DNA from: a bacterium
GTDB lineage: Bacteria > Patescibacteriota > Minisyncoccia > Phycocordibacterales > UBA9973
Assembly: GCA_037143195.1 (NCBI GenBank)
Contig: JBAWZD010000003.1
Coordinates: 5,333-69,332 of the forward strand
DNA length: 64,000 bases
Direction of reading: 5' to 3'
Below are positions 33,439 through 57,913 of this stretch, piece by piece. The notes below the pieces were generated by a model that was not told where the DNA came from, did not search any database, and worked only from the letters and a program-made list of their open reading frames with translations. The position numbers and the translations under genes were made by a program. Numbering within the stretch: position 1 is the first letter of the stretch; each line of letters opens with the position of its first letter.

Positions 33439-33459
33439 GGTTGTTTAAAAATCGTCAGG

Positions 33460-33531
33460 TGCCCCCGCGAGGAATCGAACCTCGAATAGCGGCTTAGAAG
33501 TCCGCAGTTATATCCATTTAACTACAGGGGC
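33460..33531 (-). tRNA. tRNA-Arg (anticodon TCT)
   Basis: Cloverleaf with acceptor GCCCCTG/CGGGGGC, D-stem GTTA/TAAC, anticodon loop CTTCTAA and T-arm CGAGG-TTCGATT-CCTCG. Confidence 0.65.
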
Positions 33532-33600
33532 GAATGGGCACAGTGGTAGCATACAAAAAACGCTCGTATTTAGCTAGCTACCGCTTGAGTACAGTTCGGG

Positions 33601-33673
33601 TGCGCGATGAGGGACTTGAACCCCCGACCTTCTAAGTGTAAATTAGTTGCTCTACCAACTGAGCTAATCGCGC
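33601..33673 (-). tRNA. tRNA-Val (anticodon TAC)
   Basis: Acceptor GCGCGAT/ATCGCGC, D-arm GCTC-AGTTGGTA-GAGC, anticodon loop TTTACAC, T-arm GGGGG-TTCAAGT-CCCTC. Confidence 0.7.
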
Positions 33674-33761
33674 GTACAAAGTACTCTACCAGAAAAAAAC
33701 AAAAAGTTCAATAGATATATAGACCTTTGATAAACACATACATATATACTATACTCTAGTA

Positions 33762-34439
33762 ATGAAAATCGTAGAGCGAGATAGGGCTATTTCGCTTCGG
33801 AAGAAGGGCCTTACTATTAATGAAATTGTTGCAGAAACTGGCTATTCGAAGGCGAGCGTTAGTGTTTGGGTACGAAATATACCTCTTACTGAAAAACAAA
33901 AAAATCGAATTTCAGAAAAAGGTCGAAGTCTCGCGTCGATTGAACTTCGTCGGACCTCTCGTTTAGCAAATGAGAGAAAAAAGAAAGAAATTGTGCGAGA
34001 TAGTGCTAAAAATGAGATTCGGGGATTTTCTCACCGCGACCTTTTGGTTGCTGGTGCCATGCTGTATCTCGGAGAGGGGACGAAGAAATCGAAAGGTAGG
34101 GCAAGTATTACGAATGCAGACCCTGAGGTTATCCAAATGGCCGTCCGGTTTCTTGTAGATATATGTGGTGTTCCTCACGGAAGACTTTATGGGCATATTC
34201 ATATCCACTCACATCTCGACATAAAACGAGCAGAGATGTATTGGTCAAAAGTGTCTGGCATACCTCGTGCCCAATTTTACAAAACGTATTGCAAGAAAAG
34301 TGTTGCTTCTCTTAACAAAAAAGACAGCTTACCGTACGGGACCATTGAAGTCGGCACAAACGACATAAAAATTTTCTTGAAAATAATGGGTTGGATTGAA
34401 AAAATTAAAGAATTGGCGATAGGTGCAAAAATTTCCTAA
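33762..34439 (+). CDS. HTH-containing protein with a LAGLIDADG-like motif (possible homing-endonuclease-like)
   Basis: N-terminal resolvase-type HTH 'LRKKGLTINEIVAETGYSKASVSVW'. Central 'LLVAGAMLYLGEGTK' resembles a LAGLIDADG motif. Adjacent to two tRNAs. Confidence 0.3.
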   Translation: MKIVERDRAISLRKKGLTINEIVAETGYSKASVSVWVRNIPLTEKQKNRISEKGRSLASIELRRTSRLANERKKKEIVRDSAKNEIRGFSHRDLLVAGAMLYLGEGTKKSKGRASITNADPEVIQMAVRFLVDICGVPHGRLYGHIHIHSHLDIKRAEMYWSKVSGIPRAQFYKTYCKKSVASLNKKDSLPYGTIEVGTNDIKIFLKIMGWIEKIKELAIGAKIS

Positions 34440-34459
34440 AACCCATATACTGTCCCTAT

Positions 34460-35257
34460 ATGGAACACACAGAATACCTTCCGTTTGCGCTCGACCTTGC
34501 TCGCGATGCTGGTGGCATCATGCGACAAAATTTCATGCTCGGCATGAAGAAAGAATGGAAGAGTGATGCGACACCGCTCACCGAGACAGATACCAAAATT
34601 CACACACTCGTGTGTGATTCAATTGCGCGTGCATTCCCAACTCACTCCGTGCTCTCCGAAGAGGGGGACGAAGCAGCCAAAACTCCAACGACTGAATATG
34701 TGTGGGTGTGTGATCCTGTCGACGGGACGCACAATTTTGCGCACGGTATTCCGACTGCGACATTTGCACTCGCACTTGTGCAGAACGGCAAACCAATCGT
34801 CGCCGTCATTTACGATCCATTCATGGACCGACTTTTCTACGCCGAAAAAGGCAAAGGTGCATTCATGAACAACAAGCAGATACATGTTTCTGACAATCCG
34901 ACAGTCAAAAAGACCGTGATTGGTATCGGCAAATGGTCAAACGACACTACAAATCTTTTTCCTGTTGGCGAACAATTGCGCGAACGTGGTGTGCGTCTTG
35001 TGACGGGACTTTCGATTGATTACATGGGAGCACTTGTCGCTGCAGGAGAATTTTCTGCGACAATTTTCGGGGGGCTGTCTCCTTTTGACACAGTCGCAAT
35101 TCAGCTTCTAGTGGAGGAGGCAGGGGGCAAGGCAACAGACCTTACAGGAGGCACTGTAGAGCGCTACGATCGGGAAGTTCCAGGACAGCTTGCGACGAAT
35201 GGATTGGTTCACGATGAGATTTTGCAACTCATAAAGGAATATGGAGCACGAGCCTAA
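34460..35257 (+). CDS. Inositol monophosphatase family protein (SuhB-like)
   Basis: 'WVCDPVDGTHNFAHG' IMPase motif and 'GGKATDL'. Confidence 0.8.
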   Translation: MEHTEYLPFALDLARDAGGIMRQNFMLGMKKEWKSDATPLTETDTKIHTLVCDSIARAFPTHSVLSEEGDEAAKTPTTEYVWVCDPVDGTHNFAHGIPTATFALALVQNGKPIVAVIYDPFMDRLFYAEKGKGAFMNNKQIHVSDNPTVKKTVIGIGKWSNDTTNLFPVGEQLRERGVRLVTGLSIDYMGALVAAGEFSATIFGGLSPFDTVAIQLLVEEAGGKATDLTGGTVERYDREVPGQLATNGLVHDEILQLIKEYGARA

Positions 35258-36041
35258 AATCGAAGTGACTATCCCAATCCTCTACGAGGATGCGTATTGT
35301 ATGTGTATCAACAAGCCTGCGGGCCTTGCGGTACATGGAGATGGAAAGGCAAATGAGTTCACGCTTGCAGATTGGATTCTTGAATATCATCCAACACTCG
35401 CGCCTGTCGGTGAACCACTTCGAGTGCGGATTGGTGGGGAAGAGATTACGGTGCCGAAGCCAGGGATTGTGCATCGCCTCGACAAAGATACCTCCGGAGT
35501 CATGGTGCTCGCAAAGACTCACGCAGCATATGAATTCTTCAAACAACAGTTTCAAGAACGAGAGATACAAAAAATGTATCTCGCCTTTGTGTATGGGTGG
35601 ATCAAAGAAGATGCGATGGAGATTACGGGATCGATTGGCCGTGATTCGAGCAACATTAGACGATGGACTGTTTCCAAAAATGCGCGTGGAACTTTGCGTG
35701 AAGCTATAACAAACATCCGTGTGTTGAAACGATTTGGTCATTCTGCGAATGGTCATGAATATGACGGCAAGGGAAGTACCGAAGAGGGAACGTTTTCTCT
35801 CGTTGAGGCTCGACCAAAGACCGGCCGTACGCATCAAATTCGCGTGCATATGCGCTCCGTAAACCATCCTATCGTCGGAGATTCACTGTATGCGCCTAAG
35901 CGTGGTGAAGGGCTCGGCTTCGTACGCCAGGCACTTCACGCGCGCGAGCTTACGCTCGCGCTCCCGTCCGGTCAAACCATTACCGTGCAAGCCCCGTTCC
36001 CCGAAGACTTCCAAAAAGCCCTCGAGGTTGCAAATGCATAA
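35241..36041 (+). CDS. RluA-family pseudouridine synthase
   Basis: Catalytic motif '[15 protein letters not shown]'. 'GRTHQIRVH' motif. Confidence 0.8.
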
Positions 36042-36477
36042 GCAGTGTGTTAAAGTACGCCCTGTTATGGCATTACAGCTCACACCAGTAAAAAAAGCAG
36101 ATCGCACAGCAGTCGATTTTTCTTCAGGCGACACAGTGCGCGTCTGGGTCAAAATTCCTGAAAAAGGCAAATTTCGCCTCCAGGCTTTTGAAGGTCTCGT
36201 ACTTGCTCGCAAGCACGGCACAGAAATCGGCGCGACGTTCACAGTCCGCAAAGTAGCTTCAGGTGTTGGAGTAGAGCGTATCTTTCCTCTCTTCTCACCA
36301 ATGATTGATTCAATCGAGGTCATCAAGCGTTCCGGTGCTCGCCGCAGTAAACTTTACTACGTTCGAGAGAAGGCAGTCCGCGACATCCGCAAGAAAATGA
36401 AGAGTGTCCGCGTCGTCGCAAGTGACGAAGCAGATGTTCCGGAAGTCGAGGCAGTAGCCGAGAAAGCAGAAGCCTAG
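36034..36477 (+). CDS. rplS: 50S ribosomal protein L19
   Basis: '[40 protein letters not shown]...[16 protein letters not shown]' is the L19 signature. The start is uncertain (36034 or 36067). Confidence 0.8.
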
Positions 36478-36511
36478 TATACTAGGAAAGCTGTCCGCAA
36501 GGATGGCACAT

Positions 36512-36595
36512 GCGCAGGTGGCGAAACTGGTAGACGCACTACCTTGAGGTGGTAGCACCCGCAAGGGTATGGAAGTTCAAGTCTTCTCCTGCGCA
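36512..36595 (+). tRNA. tRNA-Leu (anticodon GAG)
   Basis: 84 nt. Acceptor GCGCAGG/CCTGCGC, anticodon stem CTACC/GGTAG, loop TTGAGGT, long variable arm, T-arm GGAAG-TTCAAGT-CTTCT. Confidence 0.75.
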
Positions 36596-36810
36596 CATAA
36601 ATGAAAAACCGCACAGATTTATCTGCGCGGTTTTTCATTTACTCTGGGCTAAGGCAAGGCGAGCCAACTGCTTGGCTCGCCCGAAGACTTGAAAGCCGCA
36701 GCGATGCCGCCTTGGCGGCCGCGAGGCGGGGTCGCGAACACTTAGTCCGCACAGGGCGTAATCGCCCGAGCAGACTTAGTGATTCGTGACCAAGTCTTCT
36801 CCTGCGCACA
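36578..36810 (+). repeat. 20-bp perfect direct repeat of the tRNA-Leu 3' end (36578-36597 and 36791-36810) bracketing a 193-bp GC-rich insert
   Basis: 'caagtcttctcctgcgcaca' occurs twice. The intervening segment is about 60% GC versus about 47% in the surroundings and contains several perfect hairpins. Confidence 0.7.
36604..36635 (+). terminator. Hairpin terminator immediately 3' of tRNA-Leu
   Basis: AAAAACCGCACAGAT..ATCTGCGCGGTTTTT. Confidence 0.5.
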
Positions 36811-48398: not shown

Positions 48399-48471
48399 GG
48401 TGCCTATGGTGTAACGGTTAACACAGAGGTTTGTGGAACCTTTAATTCGAGTTCGATTCTCGATAGGCACC
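48399..48471 (+). tRNA. tRNA-His (anticodon GTG)
   Basis: G-1 plus acceptor GTGCCTA/TAGGCAC, D-arm GTGT-AACGGTTA-ACAC, anticodon loop TTGTGGA, T-arm TCGAG-TTCGATT-CTCGA, discriminator C. Confidence 0.75.
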
Positions 48472-49956
48472 CCTATCAGGGCATTCTGCCCAATTTAATA
48501 GCTCGTTGAATGGAGAACGTATTGTAAACTCTAGGTTTTTTGCCTGTACAGTCGGGTTCTGAAGTAGATAATTCAAGAATGCTCGTTTTTCGCTTGGTTC
48601 GGAACTTTCAAATATATCCCTTGAGCGTCGAGCCAATGAACACACTGTTGCTACAGTTGTTTGGTAATCATGGTCACCCCTACTGTGTTCTTCAAGTTCG
48701 CGGTTCAAGAGCTGAATGCTGTTGTAGTACTGTTGATGCTTTTTGTCGTACACCTCTTTCGTTATATTTTTGTCCAAAAATGCTTCAAGTAGATTATCGT
48801 CCCTTTGCTTTGTGCGCTCATACTCAGCGTTTATACGGGCAAGTTGTGCCTTGTGAAAGATAGTCTCTGCCTCAGTCGTTTTACGCAGTTCCTGAACGAT
48901 GTATGCTTGGTCTTTTGCTGTAATTTTTTCAAGTCGGTCAAAGACTTCGTACACGGTTTCTAGCAGTGAACTTTCTGAAACATAAGTACGCTGGCAGTTT
49001 CCTTTTCCGTTCGTACATGAGTAATATACAAAAACCAGACCGCTTTTTTTCTGGTGCATTTCTGGTGTCATTGAACAACCGCAATCTTTGCAGGTTAATA
49101 GAGCCTTGAAAATAAAATCTTTTGAAACAAACTTTGGACGATTGTTACACTTCTTGTTTTTAATTTCTTGGCATTTATCAAAAAGCTCCTTGTTGATAAG
49201 GCATTGATACTTATGTGAGTAGGGAGGGTATTTTGCAGACTGAGCTACTCCATAATAAAAAGTATCGTTCAAAATATTTTCGATACAACTTCTTGGGGGA
49301 GTAAGCCCGCCAGAACTTTTTAATCCCATTCTTATTGCTTCACGAAGAAGGGTCTCGAGTGAATAGTTGCCAGTTGAATATAATTCAAAGAGTCTTACTA
49401 TGATAGATGCTCTTTCTGGGTCTGGAATAATGTTTTTCTTTCCATCGATATCTGTAGTACGAATATATCCTAGGGGTGGTTTGCTTGGATATACACCTTC
49501 GCGCCTCATTTTTTCATATGCACGCTTTACGTTGTCACTAATTGAGTTTGAATAATACTGAGCAAGACTAACAGCGATATTGAAATGGAATAGGTCTGTT
49601 GCTGGCGAATCCTTATGAAGGATGAGATTGTCTGACGGAAAATGAAGTTCAATTTTCCCGTCTCGTCGGAGTTTTTCAAGCGTTGGTAGTCCTACCAAAA
49701 AATCACGGGTAAGTCGGTCTACTTTGTCGCAACAAAATGCGACGACCTCTTTTTGTGAGACGATATAGGCAACTACATTATCAAATTCTTTTCGGTGTTC
49801 TTTGTAGGCTGATTCATCGAAAATATACTCCATATCAAGTATAAGTTGTGGTTTGCGCTCAATGTACGAACGTAGACGGTCTTGTTGGGCTGGTAGAGAG
49901 TTACCAGCCTCTTTTTGTTCCTCAGTCGATACTCTCGCTAGTATTATTGCTTTCAT
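48442..49956 (-). CDS. Large serine recombinase (integrase)
   Basis: N-terminal resolvase catalytic domain 'MKAIILARVSTEEQ...' with the Ser nucleophile context. Recombinase domain. Zn-ribbon 'CKDCGCSM...YYSCTNGKGNC'. Coiled-coil. The last about 9 codons overlap the 3' half of tRNA-His. Confidence 0.85.
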   Translation of the reverse strand: MKAIILARVSTEEQKEAGNSLPAQQDRLRSYIERKPQLILDMEYIFDESAYKEHRKEFDNVVAYIVSQKEVVAFCCDKVDRLTRDFLVGLPTLEKLRRDGKIELHFPSDNLILHKDSPATDLFHFNIAVSLAQYYSNSISDNVKRAYEKMRREGVYPSKPPLGYIRTTDIDGKKNIIPDPERASIIVRLFELYSTGNYSLETLLREAIRMGLKSSGGLTPPRSCIENILNDTFYYGVAQSAKYPPYSHKYQCLINKELFDKCQEIKNKKCNNRPKFVSKDFIFKALLTCKDCGCSMTPEMHQKKSGLVFVYYSCTNGKGNCQRTYVSESSLLETVYEVFDRLEKITAKDQAYIVQELRKTTEAETIFHKAQLARINAEYERTKQRDDNLLEAFLDKNITKEVYDKKHQQYYNSIQLLNRELEEHSRGDHDYQTTVATVCSLARRSRDIFESSEPSEKRAFLNYLLQNPTVQAKNLEFTIRSPFNELLNWAECPDRGAYRESNSN

Positions 49957-49960
49957 TTAG

Positions 49961-50137
49961 TTATCTTGTGCTTGTTTCTTTTAAGAAATCGTTAAAGCTT
50001 TTTTTGTCTATCCTAAAATCTCGCCCAATTTTGTGTGCTTTCAAGCGACCAGCTTTTATATAACGGTAGATTGTCATAATATTTACCTCAAGTAACTGGG
50101 CGAGCTCCTCGGCACGATAAAATTCTTTATCTTTCAT
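49961..50137 (-). CDS. Excisionase/MerR-like HTH DNA-binding protein (putative recombination directionality factor)
   Basis: 58-aa ORF 'MKDKEFYRAEELAQLLEVNIMTIYRYIKAGRLKAHKIGRDFRIDKKSFNDFLK' ending 4 nt before the recombinase start. Too short to appear in the ORF track. Confidence 0.5.
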   Translation of the reverse strand: MKDKEFYRAEELAQLLEVNIMTIYRYIKAGRLKAHKIGRDFRIDKKSFNDFLKETSTR

Positions 50138-50308: not shown

Positions 50309-50503
50309 TTATTTACATTCTGGCTGATAATTTTTTATGCACTTACTAATCATGTGTATCCAGTGAGGTGGAATTACTTTTACTGGGTAGAGTTCTGGGT
50401 TTACTCGCTTATCGACCTTGAGGAGTAATTCAAAGAAACCCACAAGAACTCGCTTTTCTTGCGGATTGAGTTTGCTAAGTGAACTTTCTGACTCAGTACT
50501 CAT
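50309..50503 (-). CDS. Small hypothetical protein
   Basis: 64-aa ORF in the island, co-directional with the recombinase. Confidence 0.35.
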   Translation of the reverse strand: MSTESESSLSKLNPQEKRVLVGFFELLLKVDKRVNPELYPVKVIPPHWIHMISKCIKNYQPECK

Positions 50504-50512
50504 TTACTAAAT

Positions 50513-50767
50513 TTATTCTCGCCTTGAGCGATTTTCACTACTAAAATCGCCCGCTACACGCTTGTTTGTGAGAAGGTACAAATGGTCAATCAATGCTTTC
50601 GTGTCCGACCTTTCGTATTCATCACGAGGAATCAATTTTTTGAATGCAGGCACAAGACACTTTCGAGAAAATCCTCGAGTCTTAACTGCTTCAGCAAGAC
50701 AGATAAATGCACCCCAGCATGGCTGGCGTTTTTCTTGTTCTGTAAATCTTGCTTTGATACTTCTCAC
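50513..50767 (-). CDS. Small hypothetical protein
   Basis: 84-aa basic ORF in the island. Confidence 0.35.
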   Translation of the reverse strand: MRSIKARFTEQEKRQPCWGAFICLAEAVKTRGFSRKCLVPAFKKLIPRDEYERSDTKALIDHLYLLTNKRVAGDFSSENRSRRE

Positions 50768-51064: not shown

Positions 51065-51955
51065 ATGAATAAGAAAAAAATAAGTGTTGGCTTAATTGTA
51101 TTATCGCTTGCAGTTTTAACTATTCCCCAAGTTACTTTTGCTTCATGGTGGAATCCATTTAGCTGGAGTATTTTCCACAAGAAGTCAGTCGCAACACAAA
51201 CGGTCCCGACCATTCCAAGCTCGTCACAGACGACAGCGACAAAGCCACTGAGCGACGACTATAGCGTACTAGCAAAAAGATATGGCGGTAACCAAACCCA
51301 AGCGCAAAAAGTTGTTCCAGTGACCGTATCCGCAGTGACAGAACCAGAGGACATTACCGCATACCGTAAACAAACTGATTCGGCTTACGCTGATGAAATC
51401 AATAAATTCAACATTGCTCTTGTCGTCGAAAGTGTGCCGAAGAATTTTATAGACAGCAAAATTTCTGAATTAAATGACGATATTACACAAGGTCAGGGAT
51501 TTAAGCTTGGCAATCCAAATTCTGCCGAAGCGGTTGATTATATGGCTACTGTTTACAATAATCAGTTAGAGTTTGAAAAAAAGTATTTCGATGCTGAAGC
51601 ATCTATTATTAAATGGATACAGGATTCTAAAAATAATATGGAGGCATCAAAATCAAAGCTTTCTACTTTGAACACGAAAGAACAGATAGATAACGAGGTT
51701 CAGAAAATTAAATTTTACGATGACAATTTAGCACAGGCTCAGAATTCATCAAAAAAGTGGAGTGATACTTCACACTCAACACAGGTTAAAATTGATGGCA
51801 TAATCGCTGGACTATCAAGCTATTACTCATCAGGAGTAGCTTCAAATAATGCACCATCAATTAATGTAACCTACCCTCAAACTTTTTTGCCAACAAGTTT
51901 CAATTGCACAAGTAGCAAAGATGTTCTTGGGGGTGTTCAGACTCAGTGCTACTAA
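51065..51955 (+). CDS. Secreted hypothetical protein
   Basis: Signal peptide 'MNKKKISVGLIVLSLAVLTIPQVTFASW'. 296 aa. AT-rich. Confidence 0.5.
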   Translation: MNKKKISVGLIVLSLAVLTIPQVTFASWWNPFSWSIFHKKSVATQTVPTIPSSSQTTATKPLSDDYSVLAKRYGGNQTQAQKVVPVTVSAVTEPEDITAYRKQTDSAYADEINKFNIALVVESVPKNFIDSKISELNDDITQGQGFKLGNPNSAEAVDYMATVYNNQLEFEKKYFDAEASIIKWIQDSKNNMEASKSKLSTLNTKEQIDNEVQKIKFYDDNLAQAQNSSKKWSDTSHSTQVKIDGIIAGLSSYYSSGVASNNAPSINVTYPQTFLPTSFNCTSSKDVLGGVQTQCY

Positions 51956-52037: not shown

Positions 52038-52469
52038 TTAATGGGGAATACCTAGTGTGGTGAGGTCAACTATCGGCTCAGGTAGCTGGTCGAACGCCAG
52101 CTTCATATTTTTCGTTACTCGATTGTTCACACGATTGTATTCACGAATTGCTCCAAGCTTTGCACTCAAATCTTCTTTTTGGACAATGAGCCACGCAAGC
52201 TCGGAATCTACCGCCTTCTCGTCAATCAGTTCATTCAGGAGGTCTTGTATACGCTTGATAATGTCATCATTTCTCATCAATCGTGAACCAGACACGGCGC
52301 AGTAATGTTTGAGCCTGTCCTTTTTCTCAGTGCTCTCTAAAGCCTCAAAATCGTGTCCATAGGCTTCTGAATATGAAAGAGTGGCATTACCGAAGGTTGT
52401 TCCAGTTCTGGTGTACGCACGACAAAATAGCTCTTGTTCAGTATTTATATTTTTTGTTTCTTCGTTCAT
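52038..52469 (-). CDS. Phage terminase small subunit (P27/Terminase_2-like)
   Basis: N-terminal 'EQELFCRAYTRTGT...ATLSYSEAYG' pattern typical of the terminase small subunit. 143 aa. Confidence 0.55.
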   Translation of the reverse strand: MNEETKNINTEQELFCRAYTRTGTTFGNATLSYSEAYGHDFEALESTEKKDRLKHYCAVSGSRLMRNDDIIKRIQDLLNELIDEKAVDSELAWLIVQKEDLSAKLGAIREYNRVNNRVTKNMKLAFDQLPEPIVDLTTLGIPH

Positions 52470-52928: not shown

Positions 52929-54176
52929 ATGCAAACATTTGGATTTATAAAGAACTGGAAATACTTGGACGAGAAGGTTGCAGATGAGGACTTGCTAGAA
53001 ATGTCAGAAGAAGTCGAAGCTTTTTCTGTAAGATTGAACTCACTTAAACCGAATACTATATTAGGTTTTGTCGGCAAATTCGGTATTGGCAAAAGCACGC
53101 TTTTAAAAAAGGTTCAAAAACAGAGACTTCAAGCTGGTAATAACGAAAAATGGATACTATTTGAAGCATGGCAATTCCCAGACCGAAAAGACCTTTGGGA
53201 CGGACTAGTGCTTGAAACAGCAAGACAAGTAGGTGAAGCACAGCTAAAACGTACAAAAACTGAATTAGATGGAACTGGAGGTGGAACGAAAAAGGCACTA
53301 ATCTCAATTGCAAGTACTGTTTTAAGTGCCGTCAACCCATTGTTTGGAGCTATAAGCGGTCTTGAAAATTTCGTTAATAATTCTCCCTCTCGACGAGTAT
53401 TTGAGATTCAGGAAGTGTTCAAGGGAATTTTAGAAAAAATTGAAGAACAAACAGTAATTTTTGTTACCGAAGATGTAGACCGTTCTGGTCCAGCAGGAAT
53501 TTTTTTCTTAGAAACATTTAAACAATTCTTAAGTACGCTTGAAACGAAGAAGAAAATTATAGTTATTTCTCCTGTGGCAGAGAGTAGTTTTAATGAGCAT
53601 GTAGACGCATTCCTCAAATGTTTAGATTTTGTCGAGTTTTACTCAAAGCATAAAAAAGTGAGTCTTAGAAAATTCGTGAATGAGATACTTATCGACCAGA
53701 ATGAAAATAAGGTTGTTACTGATTTTTTACAGTACTTGTTTGTAGAACATCCTGATTTGACGATGCGAAAAATTAAGTTGATTCTAAGACAAGCAAATCA
53801 GAGTTTTTATGATTTAAAAAATTCTGGCTACAAACCCGATTATTTGGTTTGCATTTCAGTGAGTGCTTCAAAATATATATTATTTGATAAGGAAAGGGAA
53901 ATTTCATACTTTGATAGTTTTGTAAGTCGGGGTTGTTTTGTCCAAAATAATGAGTTTAATCGATTGATTTGCATGACAAGCTCAAATATAAGAGGGAGTA
54001 ATATCGGCTTCCTTGATAGCGATGGAAACCTAGGAAAAACAACCGATATTTATTTTTCAAAACGTGACACACCAGAGAATGATAAATCTTTTCCCTCAGT
54101 TCTGACTCTTGCATCGTATGGCTTCGAGTTCGACGGTACAGCAAGAAATTATATTCCTGATTTTTATCTAGCATAG
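52929..54176 (+). CDS. KAP-family P-loop NTPase
   Basis: Walker A 'GKFGIGKSTLL' followed by the KAP-typical 'WILFEAWQFPDRKDLWDGLV'. Walker B 'VIFVTEDVDR'. 415 aa. Confidence 0.6.
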   Translation: MQTFGFIKNWKYLDEKVADEDLLEMSEEVEAFSVRLNSLKPNTILGFVGKFGIGKSTLLKKVQKQRLQAGNNEKWILFEAWQFPDRKDLWDGLVLETARQVGEAQLKRTKTELDGTGGGTKKALISIASTVLSAVNPLFGAISGLENFVNNSPSRRVFEIQEVFKGILEKIEEQTVIFVTEDVDRSGPAGIFFLETFKQFLSTLETKKKIIVISPVAESSFNEHVDAFLKCLDFVEFYSKHKKVSLRKFVNEILIDQNENKVVTDFLQYLFVEHPDLTMRKIKLILRQANQSFYDLKNSGYKPDYLVCISVSASKYILFDKEREISYFDSFVSRGCFVQNNEFNRLICMTSSNIRGSNIGFLDSDGNLGKTTDIYFSKRDTPENDKSFPSVLTLASYGFEFDGTARNYIPDFYLA

Positions 54177-54199
54177 ATTTTATCTTCCTATTAAACAAA

Positions 54200-54949
54200 A
54201 TGAATTTTTTACACCAGCTATATTACTTATTTGTGTATTTAGCTAATTTCGTTTTTAGAAAAAATATTCTTCATGAGCTAGTTAGTAGTATCACTGTGCT
54301 CATTTCTGTACTGATTCCTTACCTGCTTGTGCGTTATGAAAAAGTTTTTGCGATTAACAAGGATTATCGGGATTTTTTATCACAAGCCGACGTGTATACT
54401 TTGGAATGGTTGAGTGTAACGAATTACAATATTCGTATAATTGATGAATTTCTCGAAGTACTTGCGAAACCTGACGGGGTATATGCGAAAGATTTTCAGT
54501 TTTATGATTTTCCACCGATTGGATTTTTCCGAACCTATAATAGTCAGCTTCTTAATGAATTTTATTTTCAGGTGCGCGGAATTAAGGACCTTGAACATCA
54601 TCTAAAGATGGTAAGTTCAGAATATCTGGCTTATAAACGAATGAGAAGTAATAGAGACGCTATTTTGCCTACGAATGGAAATCATTTTTTTATATTGACA
54701 ATTACGAACGTAAAAGAAAGATTGCCAGAGATTATTGAGGAAATAAAGAATTTGAGAATTAGGGTAAGTCTCTTATTGAGCGAGGTGAACAGGACTGACT
54801 CGCTCAGTATGAAGAAATTCTTTAGTTTTGGTCAAAAAAACAGGCTATGGTATAAGAAGGACCTTCAGTTTACTCTCGAGGAGATTAAGACAGAAGAAAA
54901 GAAATTAGAGGATAGAGACAGTGAAGCCATGGTAAAAAAAAGTTTTTAA
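54200..54949 (+). CDS. Hypothetical membrane-anchored protein
   Basis: Two N-terminal TM helices then a soluble domain. Starts 24 nt after the KAP NTPase stop. Confidence 0.45.
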   Translation: MNFLHQLYYLFVYLANFVFRKNILHELVSSITVLISVLIPYLLVRYEKVFAINKDYRDFLSQADVYTLEWLSVTNYNIRIIDEFLEVLAKPDGVYAKDFQFYDFPPIGFFRTYNSQLLNEFYFQVRGIKDLEHHLKMVSSEYLAYKRMRSNRDAILPTNGNHFFILTITNVKERLPEIIEEIKNLRIRVSLLLSEVNRTDSLSMKKFFSFGQKNRLWYKKDLQFTLEEIKTEEKKLEDRDSEAMVKKSF

Positions 54950-55134
54950 TCAACAAGCTTTTTCATAAGAATAAATTTGGAAAATTTCGAGAAGAGACTT
55001 TGTGTCAGTGGTAATAGCTTTCCAATCTAAAGTTCTGAATGTGTCCAACAAGCGACCCCAATTAGGAATTGAACTAAAATATCCCTTAACCACGGGGATT
55101 TTTTAGTTCTAACCAAGACTGATATACTTCTCAT

Positions 55135-55974
55135 GTGGAACCAAAAGAGCAAAATATGACACCAGGCCAAATGGCGATTGAAGGTTTGTATCTTATGCCT
55201 GGGATGCAGATCAGATTGGTAAAGTTAGAGGCTGGTAAAGACTCACATATTTCCGTTGGAACAAGTCTAGAGGGAGTACTCGATGCAGATGTACGTATCG
55301 GTCAGCCTATTTACCTCGACGGAAAAACAAAAAACACGAGCCGAATACAAGCCGTAAAAAAGGACGGTGATAGGGTTTTTTTAAAAACCGAAACTTCAGT
55401 TTACGAGCTTGTTCCTCCAACCTCCGATGGATCAAGCGAGCCTAAATCAAAAGAACGCATAGAGCTTGAACATACAATTGAGACTCTCTTGAAAGAAGTT
55501 CAAGCCAATGCTGTTGATGAAAAAATAGTCGGCAGTTTAATTGAGCGACGCCACCAGTTGGGCAGACAAGAAAAAACTGATGCCTCGAAGATCGAGCTTC
55601 AGAAAATCGATACCGAACTAGAAAAACATATTGTTACGGTAAAAACGATAGCCGAGTTTAAGTTGCTCATGGAAAAGATCGGTAGAAATTATTATGCCGT
55701 TATGGGTACTGTCGCGCATGAAAATGCTCACGCGAATATGGCGAGTTCTCTCGGTGCGATCCATTCAGGGTATTCTCTTCTTGTTACTCGAAAAGGGAAT
55801 GACTTTAGCTATCAGCCCATTGCTCTTACGAATGTTAGGGGTGAATGGGATAAAAAAGACCAACTTGAGGCTAATATCAAAATCGCTGGTGCTCCTAAAG
55901 AATATGGTAACAAGCTTTCGCCTGGAGATGAGGAAATGATTGCATCTCTCCGAAAACAGCTTAACAATCTTTAA
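55135..55974 (+). CDS. Hypothetical protein with an HExxH motif (putative zinc-dependent hydrolase)
   Basis: 'TVAHENAHANMAS' contains H-E-x-x-H. Coiled-coil N-terminal half. 279 aa. Confidence 0.4.
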   Translation: MEPKEQNMTPGQMAIEGLYLMPGMQIRLVKLEAGKDSHISVGTSLEGVLDADVRIGQPIYLDGKTKNTSRIQAVKKDGDRVFLKTETSVYELVPPTSDGSSEPKSKERIELEHTIETLLKEVQANAVDEKIVGSLIERRHQLGRQEKTDASKIELQKIDTELEKHIVTVKTIAEFKLLMEKIGRNYYAVMGTVAHENAHANMASSLGAIHSGYSLLVTRKGNDFSYQPIALTNVRGEWDKKDQLEANIKIAGAPKEYGNKLSPGDEEMIASLRKQLNNL

Positions 55975-56239: not shown

Positions 56240-57913
56240 ATGAACTTTTGGAACAATCCCGAAAATAATGCACTAAAAATGTTGCTCGCAGTAGCTGTGA
56301 TTTTGTTCGCAGGTTTTTTTGTCTACAAACATTTTCATACGAACTCACTCGCTGGCAAAGGTCTTGTACTAGGGACAGGAACAACCACTTGGACAAAGCA
56401 GCTCGCATCAGGACCGCATACTATATATGGAATGGCTGGGTCTTCAGATGGAAACAAACTTGTCTTTGTTGAAATGGGCGGATACGCGTATACCTCAATT
56501 GATGCGGGGGTCAGTTGGACCGCGCGTACAAGTTCAACAATCCAAGACTGGAGAAGCGTTGCCTCTTCGGCCGACGGTACAAAACTCATTGCCGCAGCAC
56601 ATGGTGCATACTTGTATACTTCGGCAGACAGCGGTGCTACATGGGTCGCTCAAACAGGGAGCGGATTGCGTGATTGGAGCTCTGTTGCCTCTTCGGCTGA
56701 CGGAACAAAATTAGTTGCAACTGATGTGCGAACTGGTGGGTATATATATACTTCAACCGATAGTGGAGTTCATTGGACTCAACGTATCTCAGTGCCCGGC
56801 TCCAATTGGTGGAGCGTTACTTCATCAGCAGATGGCCTGCGACTTGCAGCGGTCGACAATAGGCCAACTGGTGTGGTTCATATGTCCACCGATGGAGGTG
56901 TTTCATGGACAGATCATGCAATCCCAGGAGCAACATTGATTTCATATAAAGCAATAACGTATACAAGTGATGGAGTGAAGATCGCCGTGGGGGATATCAG
57001 TAACAAACTTTACACTTCCGTATATCCGTTTACTACATGGACAGAGAGAGATCCACTCGGGGCACCATGGGCTGCACTCGCGTATTCTGGCGACGGGTCA
57101 AAGCTTCTCGCTGCGACATCTGACGGCAAACTTTTTCTTTCTACCAATGATGGTGCTGATTGGACCGAAGAAGCTTCTGCTGGAATACACACATGGATGG
57201 CAGGTAGCCTCACCGCATCGTTTAACGGATCAAATCTTGCAGCCGCAGCGGACTATGTCTGGACCAACACGAGCGGTACCATTGATGGCACTAGCCCTGT
57301 TGTCACAACGCTTCCTGCAACGGGAATTACCGTACTCGGTGGAGTTGTTTTGAATGGTCGTTTGAACCTCATGGGAAGTGCTCCGACGGTAACTGTCGGT
57401 TTCAATTACGGAACAACGACCGCATATGGAACGACAACCACAGTTCCAGCACCTCGAACAACTGTCGGTGTATTTACGAATCCATACACGATCACGGGTC
57501 TTCTGTGTGGAACGACGTACCATGTGCAAGCTTTTGCAGTAAGTTCAGCGGGTACTTCATATGGAGCCGATGTCCCATTTACCACGGTTGCGTGTGCTGT
57601 TCACACTGTAGTTGCTCCAACTGTCGTGACAAATCCAGCAAGTTCAATTTCTCGAACGGGAGCAACATTGAATGGTAATCTCACTTCACTTGGGGGAGCA
57701 ACGACAACGACTGTCGGATTCCAACTTGGTACAACTACAACGTACGGTACGACAATGACCGTGACAGCTCCACGAACGAGTGCCGGTACATTCACGAATC
57801 CAACAACTATCAGCACACTCATCCCAAATACGCTCTATCACTATCGTGCGTTTGCGACCAATTCGGCCGGCACAGTATATGGTGCTGACGTTACATTTAC
57901 GACACTGCGATAA
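56240..57913 (+). CDS. Membrane-anchored/secreted BNR-repeat (sialidase-like beta-propeller) protein with two C-terminal Fn3-like modules
   Basis: N-terminal TM helix. At least 4 BNR/Asp-box repeats (S-x-D-x-G-x-T-W: 'SIDAGVSWT', 'SADSGATWV', 'STDSGVHWT', 'STDGGVSWT'). C-terminal duplicated module homologous to the 20845..21633 protein. Confidence 0.65.
   Translation: MNFWNNPENNALKMLLAVAVILFAGFFVYKHFHTNSLAGKGLVLGTGTTTWTKQLASGPHTIYGMAGSSDGNKLVFVEMGGYAYTSIDAGVSWTARTSSTIQDWRSVASSADGTKLIAAAHGAYLYTSADSGATWVAQTGSGLRDWSSVASSADGTKLVATDVRTGGYIYTSTDSGVHWTQRISVPGSNWWSVTSSADGLRLAAVDNRPTGVVHMSTDGGVSWTDHAIPGATLISYKAITYTSDGVKIAVGDISNKLYTSVYPFTTWTERDPLGAPWAALAYSGDGSKLLAATSDGKLFLSTNDGADWTEEASAGIHTWMAGSLTASFNGSNLAAAADYVWTNTSGTIDGTSPVVTTLPATGITVLGGVVLNGRLNLMGSAPTVTVGFNYGTTTAYGTTTTVPAPRTTVGVFTNPYTITGLLCGTTYHVQAFAVSSAGTSYGADVPFTTVACAVHTVVAPTVVTNPASSISRTGATLNGNLTSLGGATTTTVGFQLGTTTTYGTTMTVTAPRTSAGTFTNPTTISTLIPNTLYHYRAFATNSAGTVYGADVTFTTLR

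What the first reader, a model, noticed from the sequence alone, without database searches (positions are those of the whole stretch)
52929..55974. Uncharacterised three-gene module (KAP P-loop NTPase, membrane protein, HExxH protein) carried on a tRNA-His-linked island: candidate novel defence-like system
Three co-directional, tightly spaced genes sit in the lower-GC island next to a serine recombinase and a phage terminase small subunit. (a) 52929..54176 has a Walker A motif 'GKFGIGKST', the KAP-family hallmark aromatic segment 'ILFEAWQFPDRKDLWDG' and a Walker B motif 'VIFVTEDVDR'. (b) 54200..54949 starts 24 nt downstream and has two N-terminal TM helices. (c) 55135..55974 has a coiled-coil N-terminal half and an 'HENAH' HExxH motif, suggesting a Zn-hydrolase. 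KAP NTPases are recurrent components of anti-phage defence islands. A KAP-NTPase, membrane-partner and HExxH-effector combination is not a system I can name. Its position in a mobile island is the typical context for defence cargo.
Basis: partly seen in the sequence, partly recalled or inferred. Interest (0 to 1): 0.7.

Follow-up and report, generated by a model that had tools for sequence, protein, structure and literature searches.

The report
Stand-alone KAP NTPase on mobile island
The proposed three-gene defence system is not a unit: only the first gene, a compact KAP-type ATPase carried on a small integrated mobile island, recurs elsewhere, where it sits inside restriction-modification operons or on similar islands and so probably acts alone as an anti-phage gene.

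Summary
The three ORFs and the quoted motifs exist as described. Gene A (52929-54176) is a KAP-family P-loop NTPase: it passes the Pfam PF07693 cut-off narrowly, and 44 of 47 homologues hit the same model.

The trio is not a conserved module. None of about 95 non-redundant loci encoding an A homologue has a B or C homologue nearby.
- **B** is an extremely rare orphan with one conserved TM helix. Its few relatives are not next to KAP genes.
- **C** is a conserved Patescibacteria gene found in housekeeping neighbourhoods. Synteny with a related contig places it outside the island, as the chromosomal flank.

The island is about 6.6 kb and low in GC. It is integrated at tRNA-His by a large serine recombinase.

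The A family recurs in two contexts:
- Operonically embedded in Type I R-M operons (hsdM-hsdS-KAP-hsdR, gaps of 0-11 nt) in about 15 of 91 loci.
- On serine-recombinase islands at tRNA or tmRNA genes in at least 12 loci.

It has no other conserved partner. The best reading is a stand-alone KAP defence or exclusion NTPase that lacks the usual TM helices. It resembles PifA and Tmn in kind but belongs to no named system. Function is inferred only.

The parts
48400..48473 (+). tRNA-His (GTG), the integration target and left end of the island. Its 3' 32 nt are also the 3' end of the recombinase ORF on the other strand.
   Evidence: ARAGORN; sequence. The same tRNA/tmRNA-recombinase overlap occurs in L004, L015, L017, L024, L041 and L043.
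48442..49956 (-). Large serine recombinase (504 aa), the integrase of the island.
   Evidence: Pfam Resolvase 1.3e-18, Recombinase 6.5e-8, Zn_ribbon_recom 2.4e-8.
49961..50137 (-). HTH_17 (excisionase/MerR-like) small DNA-binding protein. It may be a directionality factor or regulator.
   Evidence: Pfam HTH_17 5e-13. The role is inferred.
50309..50767 (-). Two small island ORFs (64 and 84 aa) of unknown function.
   Evidence: No family hits. No homologues in other islands.
51065..51955 (+). 296-aa island ORF with an N-terminal signal or anchor segment, function unknown.
   Evidence: Hydrophobic segment at residues 5-28. No family hits.
52038..52469 (-). terS-like HTH protein (143 aa). Only the N-terminal DNA-binding part matches terminase small subunits.
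   Evidence: phrog_51 1.6e-8; Pfam Terminase_2 below cut-off. No tblastn hit in phage genomes.
52929..54176 (+). Gene A: compact KAP-family P-loop NTPase without TM helices (415 aa). This is the recurrent, probably autonomous, defence-type cargo.
   Evidence: Pfam KAP_NTPase 21 bits against cut-off 20. 44 of 47 homologues hit KAP_NTPase. Walker A K55/S56 and Walker B E181 D182 D184 R185 are invariant. AF2 pLDDT 86.5. AAA+/STAND-like fold. R-M and recombinase contexts.
54200..54949 (+). Gene B: single-pass membrane-anchored protein (249 aa) from a very rare orphan family. It is probably co-transcribed with A but is not a conserved partner.
   Evidence: Two homologues among 5.8e9 proteins and two representatives among 1.84e9, none next to a KAP gene. 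One conserved TM helix.
55081..55099 (+). Terminator-like hairpin with a T-run between B and C. It lies in the interval that must contain the right end of the island (54950-55134).
   Evidence: Consensus scan: weak, 5 sites found against 2.4 expected. The boundary is inferred from synteny and GC.
55135..55974 (+). Gene C: conserved Patescibacteria HExxH protein (279 aa). It is a chromosomal flank gene and not part of the island or of any KAP module.

Best explanation
The locus is an integrative island of about 6.6 kb with low GC (about 48442 to about 55100). It was inserted at tRNA-His by a large serine recombinase.

Its one recurrent cargo gene is A, a compact (about 420 aa) KAP-family P-loop NTPase. 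The KAP insert between Walker A and Walker B is only a 36-54-aa amphipathic loop instead of transmembrane helices.

A most likely works on its own as a phage- or MGE-exclusion NTPase, the same kind of gene as PifA and Tmn. The proposed mechanism is an NTP-driven sensor or switch that oligomerises on sensing an invader and then aborts or blocks the infection. The amphipathic insert or the basic lid/C-terminal domain would serve as the output or interaction surface.

B is a lineage-specific, probably co-transcribed, membrane-anchored protein of unknown role. At most it is an optional local partner. C is an unrelated host gene, a zincin-like HExxH protein that flanks the insertion site.

**Shown:** KAP membership, intact catalytic motifs, island context, lack of co-conservation of the trio, and recurrent embedding of the A family in Type I R-M operons and on recombinase islands.

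**Inferred:** the anti-phage function, autonomy, and the oligomerisation/abortive mechanism.
For: **KAP identity.**
- Pfam PF07693 is above its cut-off for A and is the top family for 44 of 47 homologues.
- PADLOC PifA matches 44 of 47 homologues and QatA 39 of 47.
- Walker A and Walker B residues are invariant across 47 sequences.
- The AF2 model is confident, with the insert at 117-150 disordered.
- Foldseek finds AAA+/STAND-type switch ATPases, including RdrA of RADAR.

**Context.**
- There are 91 non-redundant loci.
- hsdM/hsdS/hsdR are verified by Pfam and lie next to the KAP gene in about 15 loci. The hsdS-KAP and KAP-hsdR gaps are 0-11 nt in L018, L023, L025, L051, L066, L075, L076 and L105.
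- A serine recombinase lies within 8 kb in 12 loci, plus L123 and L126.
- Among the closest relatives, P0003 and P0004 lie about 1 kb from a divergently transcribed Type III R-M gene pair, and P0010 starts 3 nt after a helicase with an MTES_1575 domain.
- R-M and recombinase contexts are interleaved in the family tree.

**No conserved partner.** The 120 remaining immediate neighbours fall into 114 Pfam families, none with more than 3 members.

**Trio not conserved.**

**C outside the island.** L010 has VKOR, then tRNA-His, then one gene, then the C homologue. There is a terminator-like site between B and C, and GC rises after 55 kb.

**Precedent.** Tmn is a validated single-gene KAP NTPase defence (bioRxiv 10.1101/2022.08.21.504612; PMC11846954). 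'Guilt by embedding' in Type I R-M operons has yielded validated defences (PMC11411939; bioRxiv 10.1101/2024.01.29.577857).
Against: - There is no experimental evidence for any member of this subfamily.
- No recognisable effector domain or catalytic motif lies outside the P-loop. The conserved C-terminal residues are K230, R280, K283, R287 and Y413.
- About half of the loci with adequate flanks (34 of 63) have neither R-M nor a recombinase nearby.
- I did not compute a formal background control for the enrichment.
- Matches to named defence HMMs are weak and cover only the N-terminal P-loop region.
- The family is absent from phage, plasmid and IMG/VR collections, so its mobility is known only from islands.
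- A and B are 23 nt apart and co-directional, so a local two-gene unit cannot be excluded.
Confidence: 0.6

Rival explanations
1. A+B, or A+B+C, form a true lineage-specific multi-gene defence system. A would be the sensor or switch, B the membrane effector, and C the metalloprotease effector.
For: A and B are co-directional and 23 nt apart, and a terminator-like site appears only after B. B has a conserved TM anchor. C has an invariant HExxH in a well-folded domain. B's homologue on L006 lies in a variable region with a PIN gene, a Fic gene and an rve integrase.
Against: None of about 95 other non-redundant KAP loci has a B or C homologue. B's relatives are not next to KAP genes. C's relatives lie in housekeeping operons (aaRS-C-TatD), and on L010 the C homologue lies just downstream of tRNA-His with no island present. 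There is a 185-nt gap with a terminator-like hairpin between B and C.
Confidence: 0.1
2. A is a maintenance, replication or recombination accessory ATPase of the serine-recombinase island (Orc1/Cdc6-, TnsC- or MuB-like) rather than a defence gene.
For: The best Foldseek PDB hits are Cdc6/Orc1 initiators (E 2.6e-7, TMq 0.46) and TnsC. In the window's clade, the recombinase and A are the only genes shared between islands. A has a conserved basic helix, R280/K283/R287.
Against: The family sits inside Type I R-M operons, or next to Type III R-M, with no recombinase present in about 15 loci. L014, in the window's own clade, is R-M-adjacent. Many loci have no mobile-element genes. The fold hits reflect the generic AAA+ core plus lid (TM below 0.5). 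RdrA and CED-4 match equally well.
Confidence: 0.12
3. A is a guard or accessory of restriction-modification, analogous to PrrC. It would monitor or cooperate with a Type I R-M complex, and here it is an orphan separated from its R-M partner.
For: There is tight operonic embedding between hsdS and hsdR in at least 8 loci. PrrC sets the precedent, being found almost exclusively embedded in Type I R-M (bioRxiv 10.1101/2024.01.29.577857).
Against: No hsd gene occurs anywhere in the 64-kb window. Most family members, including nearly all of the window's clade, lack adjacent Type I R-M. There is no HEPN or other nuclease domain.
Confidence: 0.13
4. A is decaying or neutral cargo with no current function.
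For: The island is small, has no detectable att repeat, and may be immobilised.
Against: All 20 family-invariant residues are retained and the ORF is full length. The model is confident.
Confidence: 0.05

Closest known systems
PifA (F-plasmid phage T7 exclusion protein)
   Same: Single-gene KAP-family P-loop NTPase carried on a mobile element. It gives the best PADLOC match (44 of 47 family members, best E 1.1e-12).
   Different: The match covers only the P-loop region (residues 42-189 against positions 40-197 of a 720-position profile). A is about 300 residues shorter and has no detectable similarity outside the NTPase core.
Tmn (transmembrane NTPase defence)
   Same: Validated stand-alone KAP NTPase defence, often on plasmids (bioRxiv 10.1101/2022.08.21.504612; PMC11846954).
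   Different: Tmn has two TM helices inserted in the P-loop domain. The A family has a 36-54-aa amphipathic insert. Only 4 of 47 members have even one weakly hydrophobic 19-mer there, and none has two. No Tmn-named model appears among the PADLOC hits.
QatA of the QatABCD system
   Same: KAP-type ATPase. There are weak HMM matches from PADLOC QatA (39 of 47 members) and NCBIfam NF041923 (20 bits).
   Different: NF041923's cut-off is 600 bits. B and C have no PADLOC hit, so they are not QatB, QatC or QatD, and no QueC-like or TatD partner is present.
PrrC / RloC and other genes embedded in Type I R-M operons (e.g. TgvAB)
   Same: Same genomic habit at the family level: inserted between hsdS and hsdR with near-zero intergenic gaps (PMC11411939).
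   Different: No anticodon-nuclease (HEPN) or GmrSD domain is present. The window copy is not in an R-M operon.
RdrA (RADAR) and Orc1/Cdc6-type AAA+/STAND switch ATPases
   Same: Overall fold of a P-loop core plus helical lid plus small C-terminal domain (Foldseek E 2.6e-7 to 4e-5).
   Different: TM scores are 0.35-0.46 and identity is 12-13%. There is no RdrB-like partner. The resemblance is at the level of ATPase class only.

Membership tests
KAP family P-loop NTPases (Pfam PF07693) | Match to the family HMM above the curated cut-off. | tested here: met
   21.0 bits against a cut-off of 20, E 2.3e-4, residues 37-185. It is the top family in 44 of 47 homologues, best E 1.3e-10.
KAP family P-loop NTPases (Pfam PF07693) | Intact Walker A (GxxxxGKS/T) and Walker B acidic motif. 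| tested here: met
   GKFGIGKST and VTEDVDR are present. K55, S56, E181, D182 and D184 are invariant in 47 sequences.
KAP family P-loop NTPases (Pfam PF07693) | Two or four transmembrane helices inserted within the P-loop domain. This is the classical KAP hallmark, stated from knowledge of the family and from 10.1101/2022.08.21.504612. | tested here: not met
   An insert exists at the right place (residues 112-153, pLDDT below 50) but it is only 36-54 aa. Just 4 of 47 members have one 19-mer there with a KD score of at least 1.6, and none has two.
PifA defence | Full-length similarity to PifA. | tested here: not met
   The PADLOC PifA match is restricted to positions 40-197 of the 720-position profile.
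Tmn defence | Single KAP NTPase with two TM helices in the NTPase domain. | tested here: not met
   No pair of TM helices. No Tmn-named PADLOC model at E<=1e-3.
Qat (QatABCD) system | QatA equivalog score, plus QatB, QatC (QueC-like) and QatD (TatD) neighbours. | tested here: not met
   NF041923 scores 20 bits against a cut-off of 600. B and C have no PADLOC hits.
   None of about 95 non-redundant KAP loci has B or C. The B and C homologue loci lack KAP genes.
Type I R-M-embedded defence genes | Located inside an hsdM/hsdS/hsdR operon. | tested here: not met
   Not met for the window copy, because there is no hsd gene in the 64 kb. Met for the family, in about 15 of 91 loci with gaps of 0-11 nt.
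Serine-recombinase integrative island | Large serine recombinase adjacent to the integration target, with compositional deviation and a break in synteny. | tested here: met
   The recombinase domains are present. There is a tRNA-His overlap and a GC dip. The L010 contig has tRNA-His and the C homologue without any recombinase or KAP gene. att sites were not identified.
Zincin metallopeptidases (for gene C) | HExxH on a helix, plus a third metal ligand, in a zincin-like fold. | tested here: inconclusive
   [not shown]

The most novel reading that the evidence does not exclude
Gene A represents an unnamed family of stand-alone KAP NTPase immunity genes that lack TM helices and are centred on Patescibacteria. 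The family moves between Type I and Type III R-M operons and a family of small islands. On those islands the large serine recombinase gene ends inside the 3' end of a tRNA or tmRNA gene. In the window's clade, the recombinase and the KAP gene are the only conserved genes, which would make them minimal mobile defence elements of ultra-small bacteria.
Probability: 0.4. Interest if true: 0.55.

Novelty: new variant of a known kind. Interest (0 to 1): 0.35.

Why it matters
Patescibacteria are generally considered poor in known immune systems, and their mobile elements are little described. If this compact KAP NTPase is a working defence gene, it would add a CPR-centred single-gene immunity family. 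It would also add a KAP variant that lacks the membrane helices thought typical of KAP defences. Its orthologues embedded in R-M operons, including two in gammaproteobacterial MAGs, offer a tractable route to test it. For the scan itself, the main lesson is negative: tight spacing on an island did not indicate a multi-gene system here.

Tried and rejected
- **att repeats.** I searched for a copy of the tRNA-His 3' end or any direct repeat bounding the island and found none. This is compatible with serine-recombinase chemistry, so the right boundary rests on synteny and GC only.
- **B and C families.** Pfam, PADLOC, NCBIfam and PHROGs returned nothing for either.
- **Proteins next to B homologues.** The 421-aa and 402-aa proteins beside the B homologues were tested as possible divergent KAPs. 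They show no similarity to A.
- **Deep search for B.** A full HMMER scan of 1.84e9 representatives found only 2 proteins. One is a fusion to a GDSL/SGNH hydrolase.
- **A in viral, phage and plasmid collections.** No hits in IMG/VR, INPHARED or PLSDB.
- **terS-like gene against phages.** No hit.
- **PDB sequence search with the A profile.** Only generic P-loop matches to ABC-F proteins.
- **Foldseek of C against PDB.** Nothing significant.
- **L060 640-aa protein.** It occupies the 'recombinase position', so I suspected a divergent recombinase. It is a P-type ATPase.
- **PADLOC census of KAP neighbours.** No recurrent partner.
Full report
**Observation.** The three co-directional ORFs are real: A 52929-54176 (415 aa), B 54200-54949 (249 aa, 23 nt after A's stop) and C 55135-55974 (279 aa). 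The quoted Walker A, 'FEAWQFPDRKDLW', Walker B and HENAH motifs are all present. The region from 49 to 55 kb has GC of 0.34-0.38, against about 0.45 around it. Upstream lie these features:
- tRNA-His at 48400-48473.
- A 504-aa large serine recombinase on the minus strand (Resolvase, Recombinase and Zn_ribbon_recom domains).
- An HTH_17 protein.
- A terS-like HTH protein. phrog_51 gives E 1.6e-8, but only for the N-terminal part, and Pfam Terminase_2 is below its cut-off.

**Gene A is a KAP-type NTPase.**
- Pfam KAP_NTPase scores 21.0 bits against a cut-off of 20. This is marginal on its own.
- A has 66 cluster-level homologues of about 410-430 aa, and 44 of 47 aligned members hit KAP_NTPase as their top family, best E 1.3e-10.
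- The alignment (A1) shows invariant K55/S56 (Walker A) and E181-D182-x-D184-R185 (Walker B). It also shows the motifs FDAWKFPDRKDLWEGF, SPARRVFEIQ, RKxKLILRKAN and a C-terminal PDFYLxY.
- PADLOC gives only weak, N-terminal matches: PifA in 44 of 47 members, QatA in 39 of 47 and PDC-S20 in 27 of 47. The NCBIfam QatA score is 20 bits against a cut-off of 600. A therefore belongs to no named system.
- The AF2 model is confident (pLDDT 86.5, pTM 0.82) except for residues 117-150, which form the insert between Walker A and Walker B.
- Foldseek finds AAA+/STAND-type switch ATPases: Orc1/Cdc6 at E 2.6e-7 and TMq 0.46, plus RdrA of RADAR, TnsC and CED-4.
- The insert is 36-54 aa and amphipathic. Only 4 of 47 members have even one marginally hydrophobic 19-mer in it. 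The classical KAP transmembrane hairpin, as in Tmn, is therefore absent.

**The trio is not a conserved module.**
- *B.* It has two homologues among 5.8e9 proteins and two representatives in an exhaustive HMMER scan of 1.84e9 proteins. One of these is fused to a GDSL hydrolase. The B homologues on L006 and L007 are not next to a KAP gene. Only one TM helix (residues about 24-45) is conserved.
- *C.* It has 17 homologues, all from Patescibacteria, with invariant HENAHxN, APxEYG and S..D. On L008 and on L011/L012 the homologue sits 3 nt after a class-I aminoacyl-tRNA synthetase gene, with TatD downstream. On L008 the C homologue and TatD overlap by 4 nt.
- *Synteny.* On L010 the order is L19, VKOR, tRNA-His, one gene, then the C homologue. 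There is no recombinase or KAP gene there. The window has VKOR, then tRNA-His, then the island, then C. C is therefore the chromosomal flank, and the right end of the island lies between 54950 and 55134. A terminator-like hairpin sits in that interval at 55081-55099 (weak evidence).

**Where the A family lives.** I collected 105 loci, 91 of them non-redundant, from GTDB genomes, metagenomes and contig look-ups. Hosts are overwhelmingly Patescibacteria. There are a few others, including two gammaproteobacterial MAG chromosomes. Two contexts recur.
- *Type I R-M operons.* Clusters c4, c2 and c9 of the first clustering are HsdM, HsdS and HsdR by Pfam.
  - They flank the KAP gene in about 15 loci, typically as hsdM-hsdS-KAP-hsdR.
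  - The hsdS-KAP and KAP-hsdR gaps are 0-11 nt in L018, L023, L025, L051, L066, L075, L076 and L105.
- *Serine-recombinase islands.* A large serine recombinase lies within 8 kb in 12 loci, plus L123 and L126.

Other contexts were also seen:
- Among the closest relatives of the window protein, P0003 and P0004 lie about 1 kb from a divergently transcribed Type III R-M gene pair.
- P0010, another close relative, starts 3 nt after a 1171-aa AAA_11/AAA_12 helicase with an MTES_1575 domain, between two tyrosine integrase genes.
- Fic directly precedes three distant members.

The 120 remaining immediate neighbours fall into 114 Pfam families, none with more than 3 members. PADLOC shows no recurrent partner either. 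In a crude NJ tree, the R-M and recombinase contexts are clustered but interleaved. The family is absent from the IMG/VR, INPHARED and PLSDB collections.

**Interpretation.**
- Embedding in R-M operons and carriage on integrative islands next to variable defence-type genes is the classic signature of a defence gene. The neighbours seen include nSTAND3, DUF4411 with M78, DUF2726, DUF4238, SNase and a deaminase.
- 'Guilt by embedding' has been validated experimentally for other genes (PMC11411939; bioRxiv 10.1101/2024.01.29.577857).
- Single-gene KAP NTPase defences are already known: Tmn (bioRxiv 10.1101/2022.08.21.504612; PMC11846954) and PifA.
- I therefore read A as an autonomous KAP defence or exclusion NTPase of a new subtype lacking TM helices. 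B would be an accidental or lineage-specific neighbour and C a host gene.
- The mechanism (NTP-driven oligomeric switch leading to abortive or blocked infection) is inference. No effector domain is recognisable.

**Rivals.**
- *A real A+B(+C) system.* Not excluded for this lineage, but unsupported by any comparative evidence.
- *An island replication or recombination accessory.* The Orc1/TnsC-like fold fits, and the recombinase and KAP gene are the only genes shared between islands in the window's clade. The recombinase-free R-M-embedded copies argue against it.
- *A PrrC-like R-M guard.* It fits the embedded copies, but the window has no hsd genes.

**Verdict.** The 'KAP NTPase on a mobile island, defence-like' part is supported. 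The 'three-gene system with membrane partner and HExxH effector' part is not. This is a new variant of a known kind, of moderate-to-low interest until it is tested.

Noticed in passing
window 48400-49956; L004, L015, L017, L022, L024, L041, L043: In the window and six further loci, the large serine recombinase ORF ends inside the 3' end of a tRNA or tmRNA gene on the opposite strand. Overlaps run from 8 to 72 nt and involve His, Glu, Asn and tmRNA. L022 shows the same arrangement with tRNA-Pro. This suggests a family of tRNA/tmRNA-targeting serine-recombinase islands in Patescibacteria, with attP lying in or at the recombinase 3' end. No tRNA-derived repeat was found at the far end of the window island.
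   Followed up: partly
[not shown]
   Followed up: partly
window 54200-54949; P0089: Gene B's family is extraordinarily rare, with 2 representatives among 1.84e9 proteins. In one of them (P0089, 457 aa) the B domain is fused to a GDSL/SGNH hydrolase domain. The NCBI annotation of this MAG starts B at V33, which would cut the conserved TM helix. Conservation supports the ATG at 54200.
   Followed up: partly
window 52038-52469 (-); L003 4186-4653; L085 2463-4418: The islands carry terS-like HTH genes (in the window, and GP3_package on L003). One carries an AAA_25 RepA-like 652-aa protein (L085). This hints that some of these islands could be satellite-like elements. No similarity was found to sequenced phages.
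   Followed up: partly
L022 1982-14238: Three large serine recombinase genes lie within about 12 kb next to tRNA-Pro, with a KAP gene between the second and third. This looks like a tandem array of islands at one tRNA.
   Followed up: no
window 56240-57913: A 557-aa secreted protein has 126-nt-spaced internal repeats (56546-56592 and 56672-56718, 79% identical) and a sub-threshold match to F510_1955-type glycosylhydrolase / BNR-like beta-propeller repeats (57 bits against a cut-off of 175). It is unrelated to the island.
   Followed up: no
window 33458-36596 and 48400; L010 1782-7148: The order tRNA-Arg(tct), tRNA-Val(tac), tRNA-Leu(gag), tRNA-His(gtg) is shared between the window and the L010 contig. 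This supports using L010 as an island-free syntenic comparator.
   Followed up: partly
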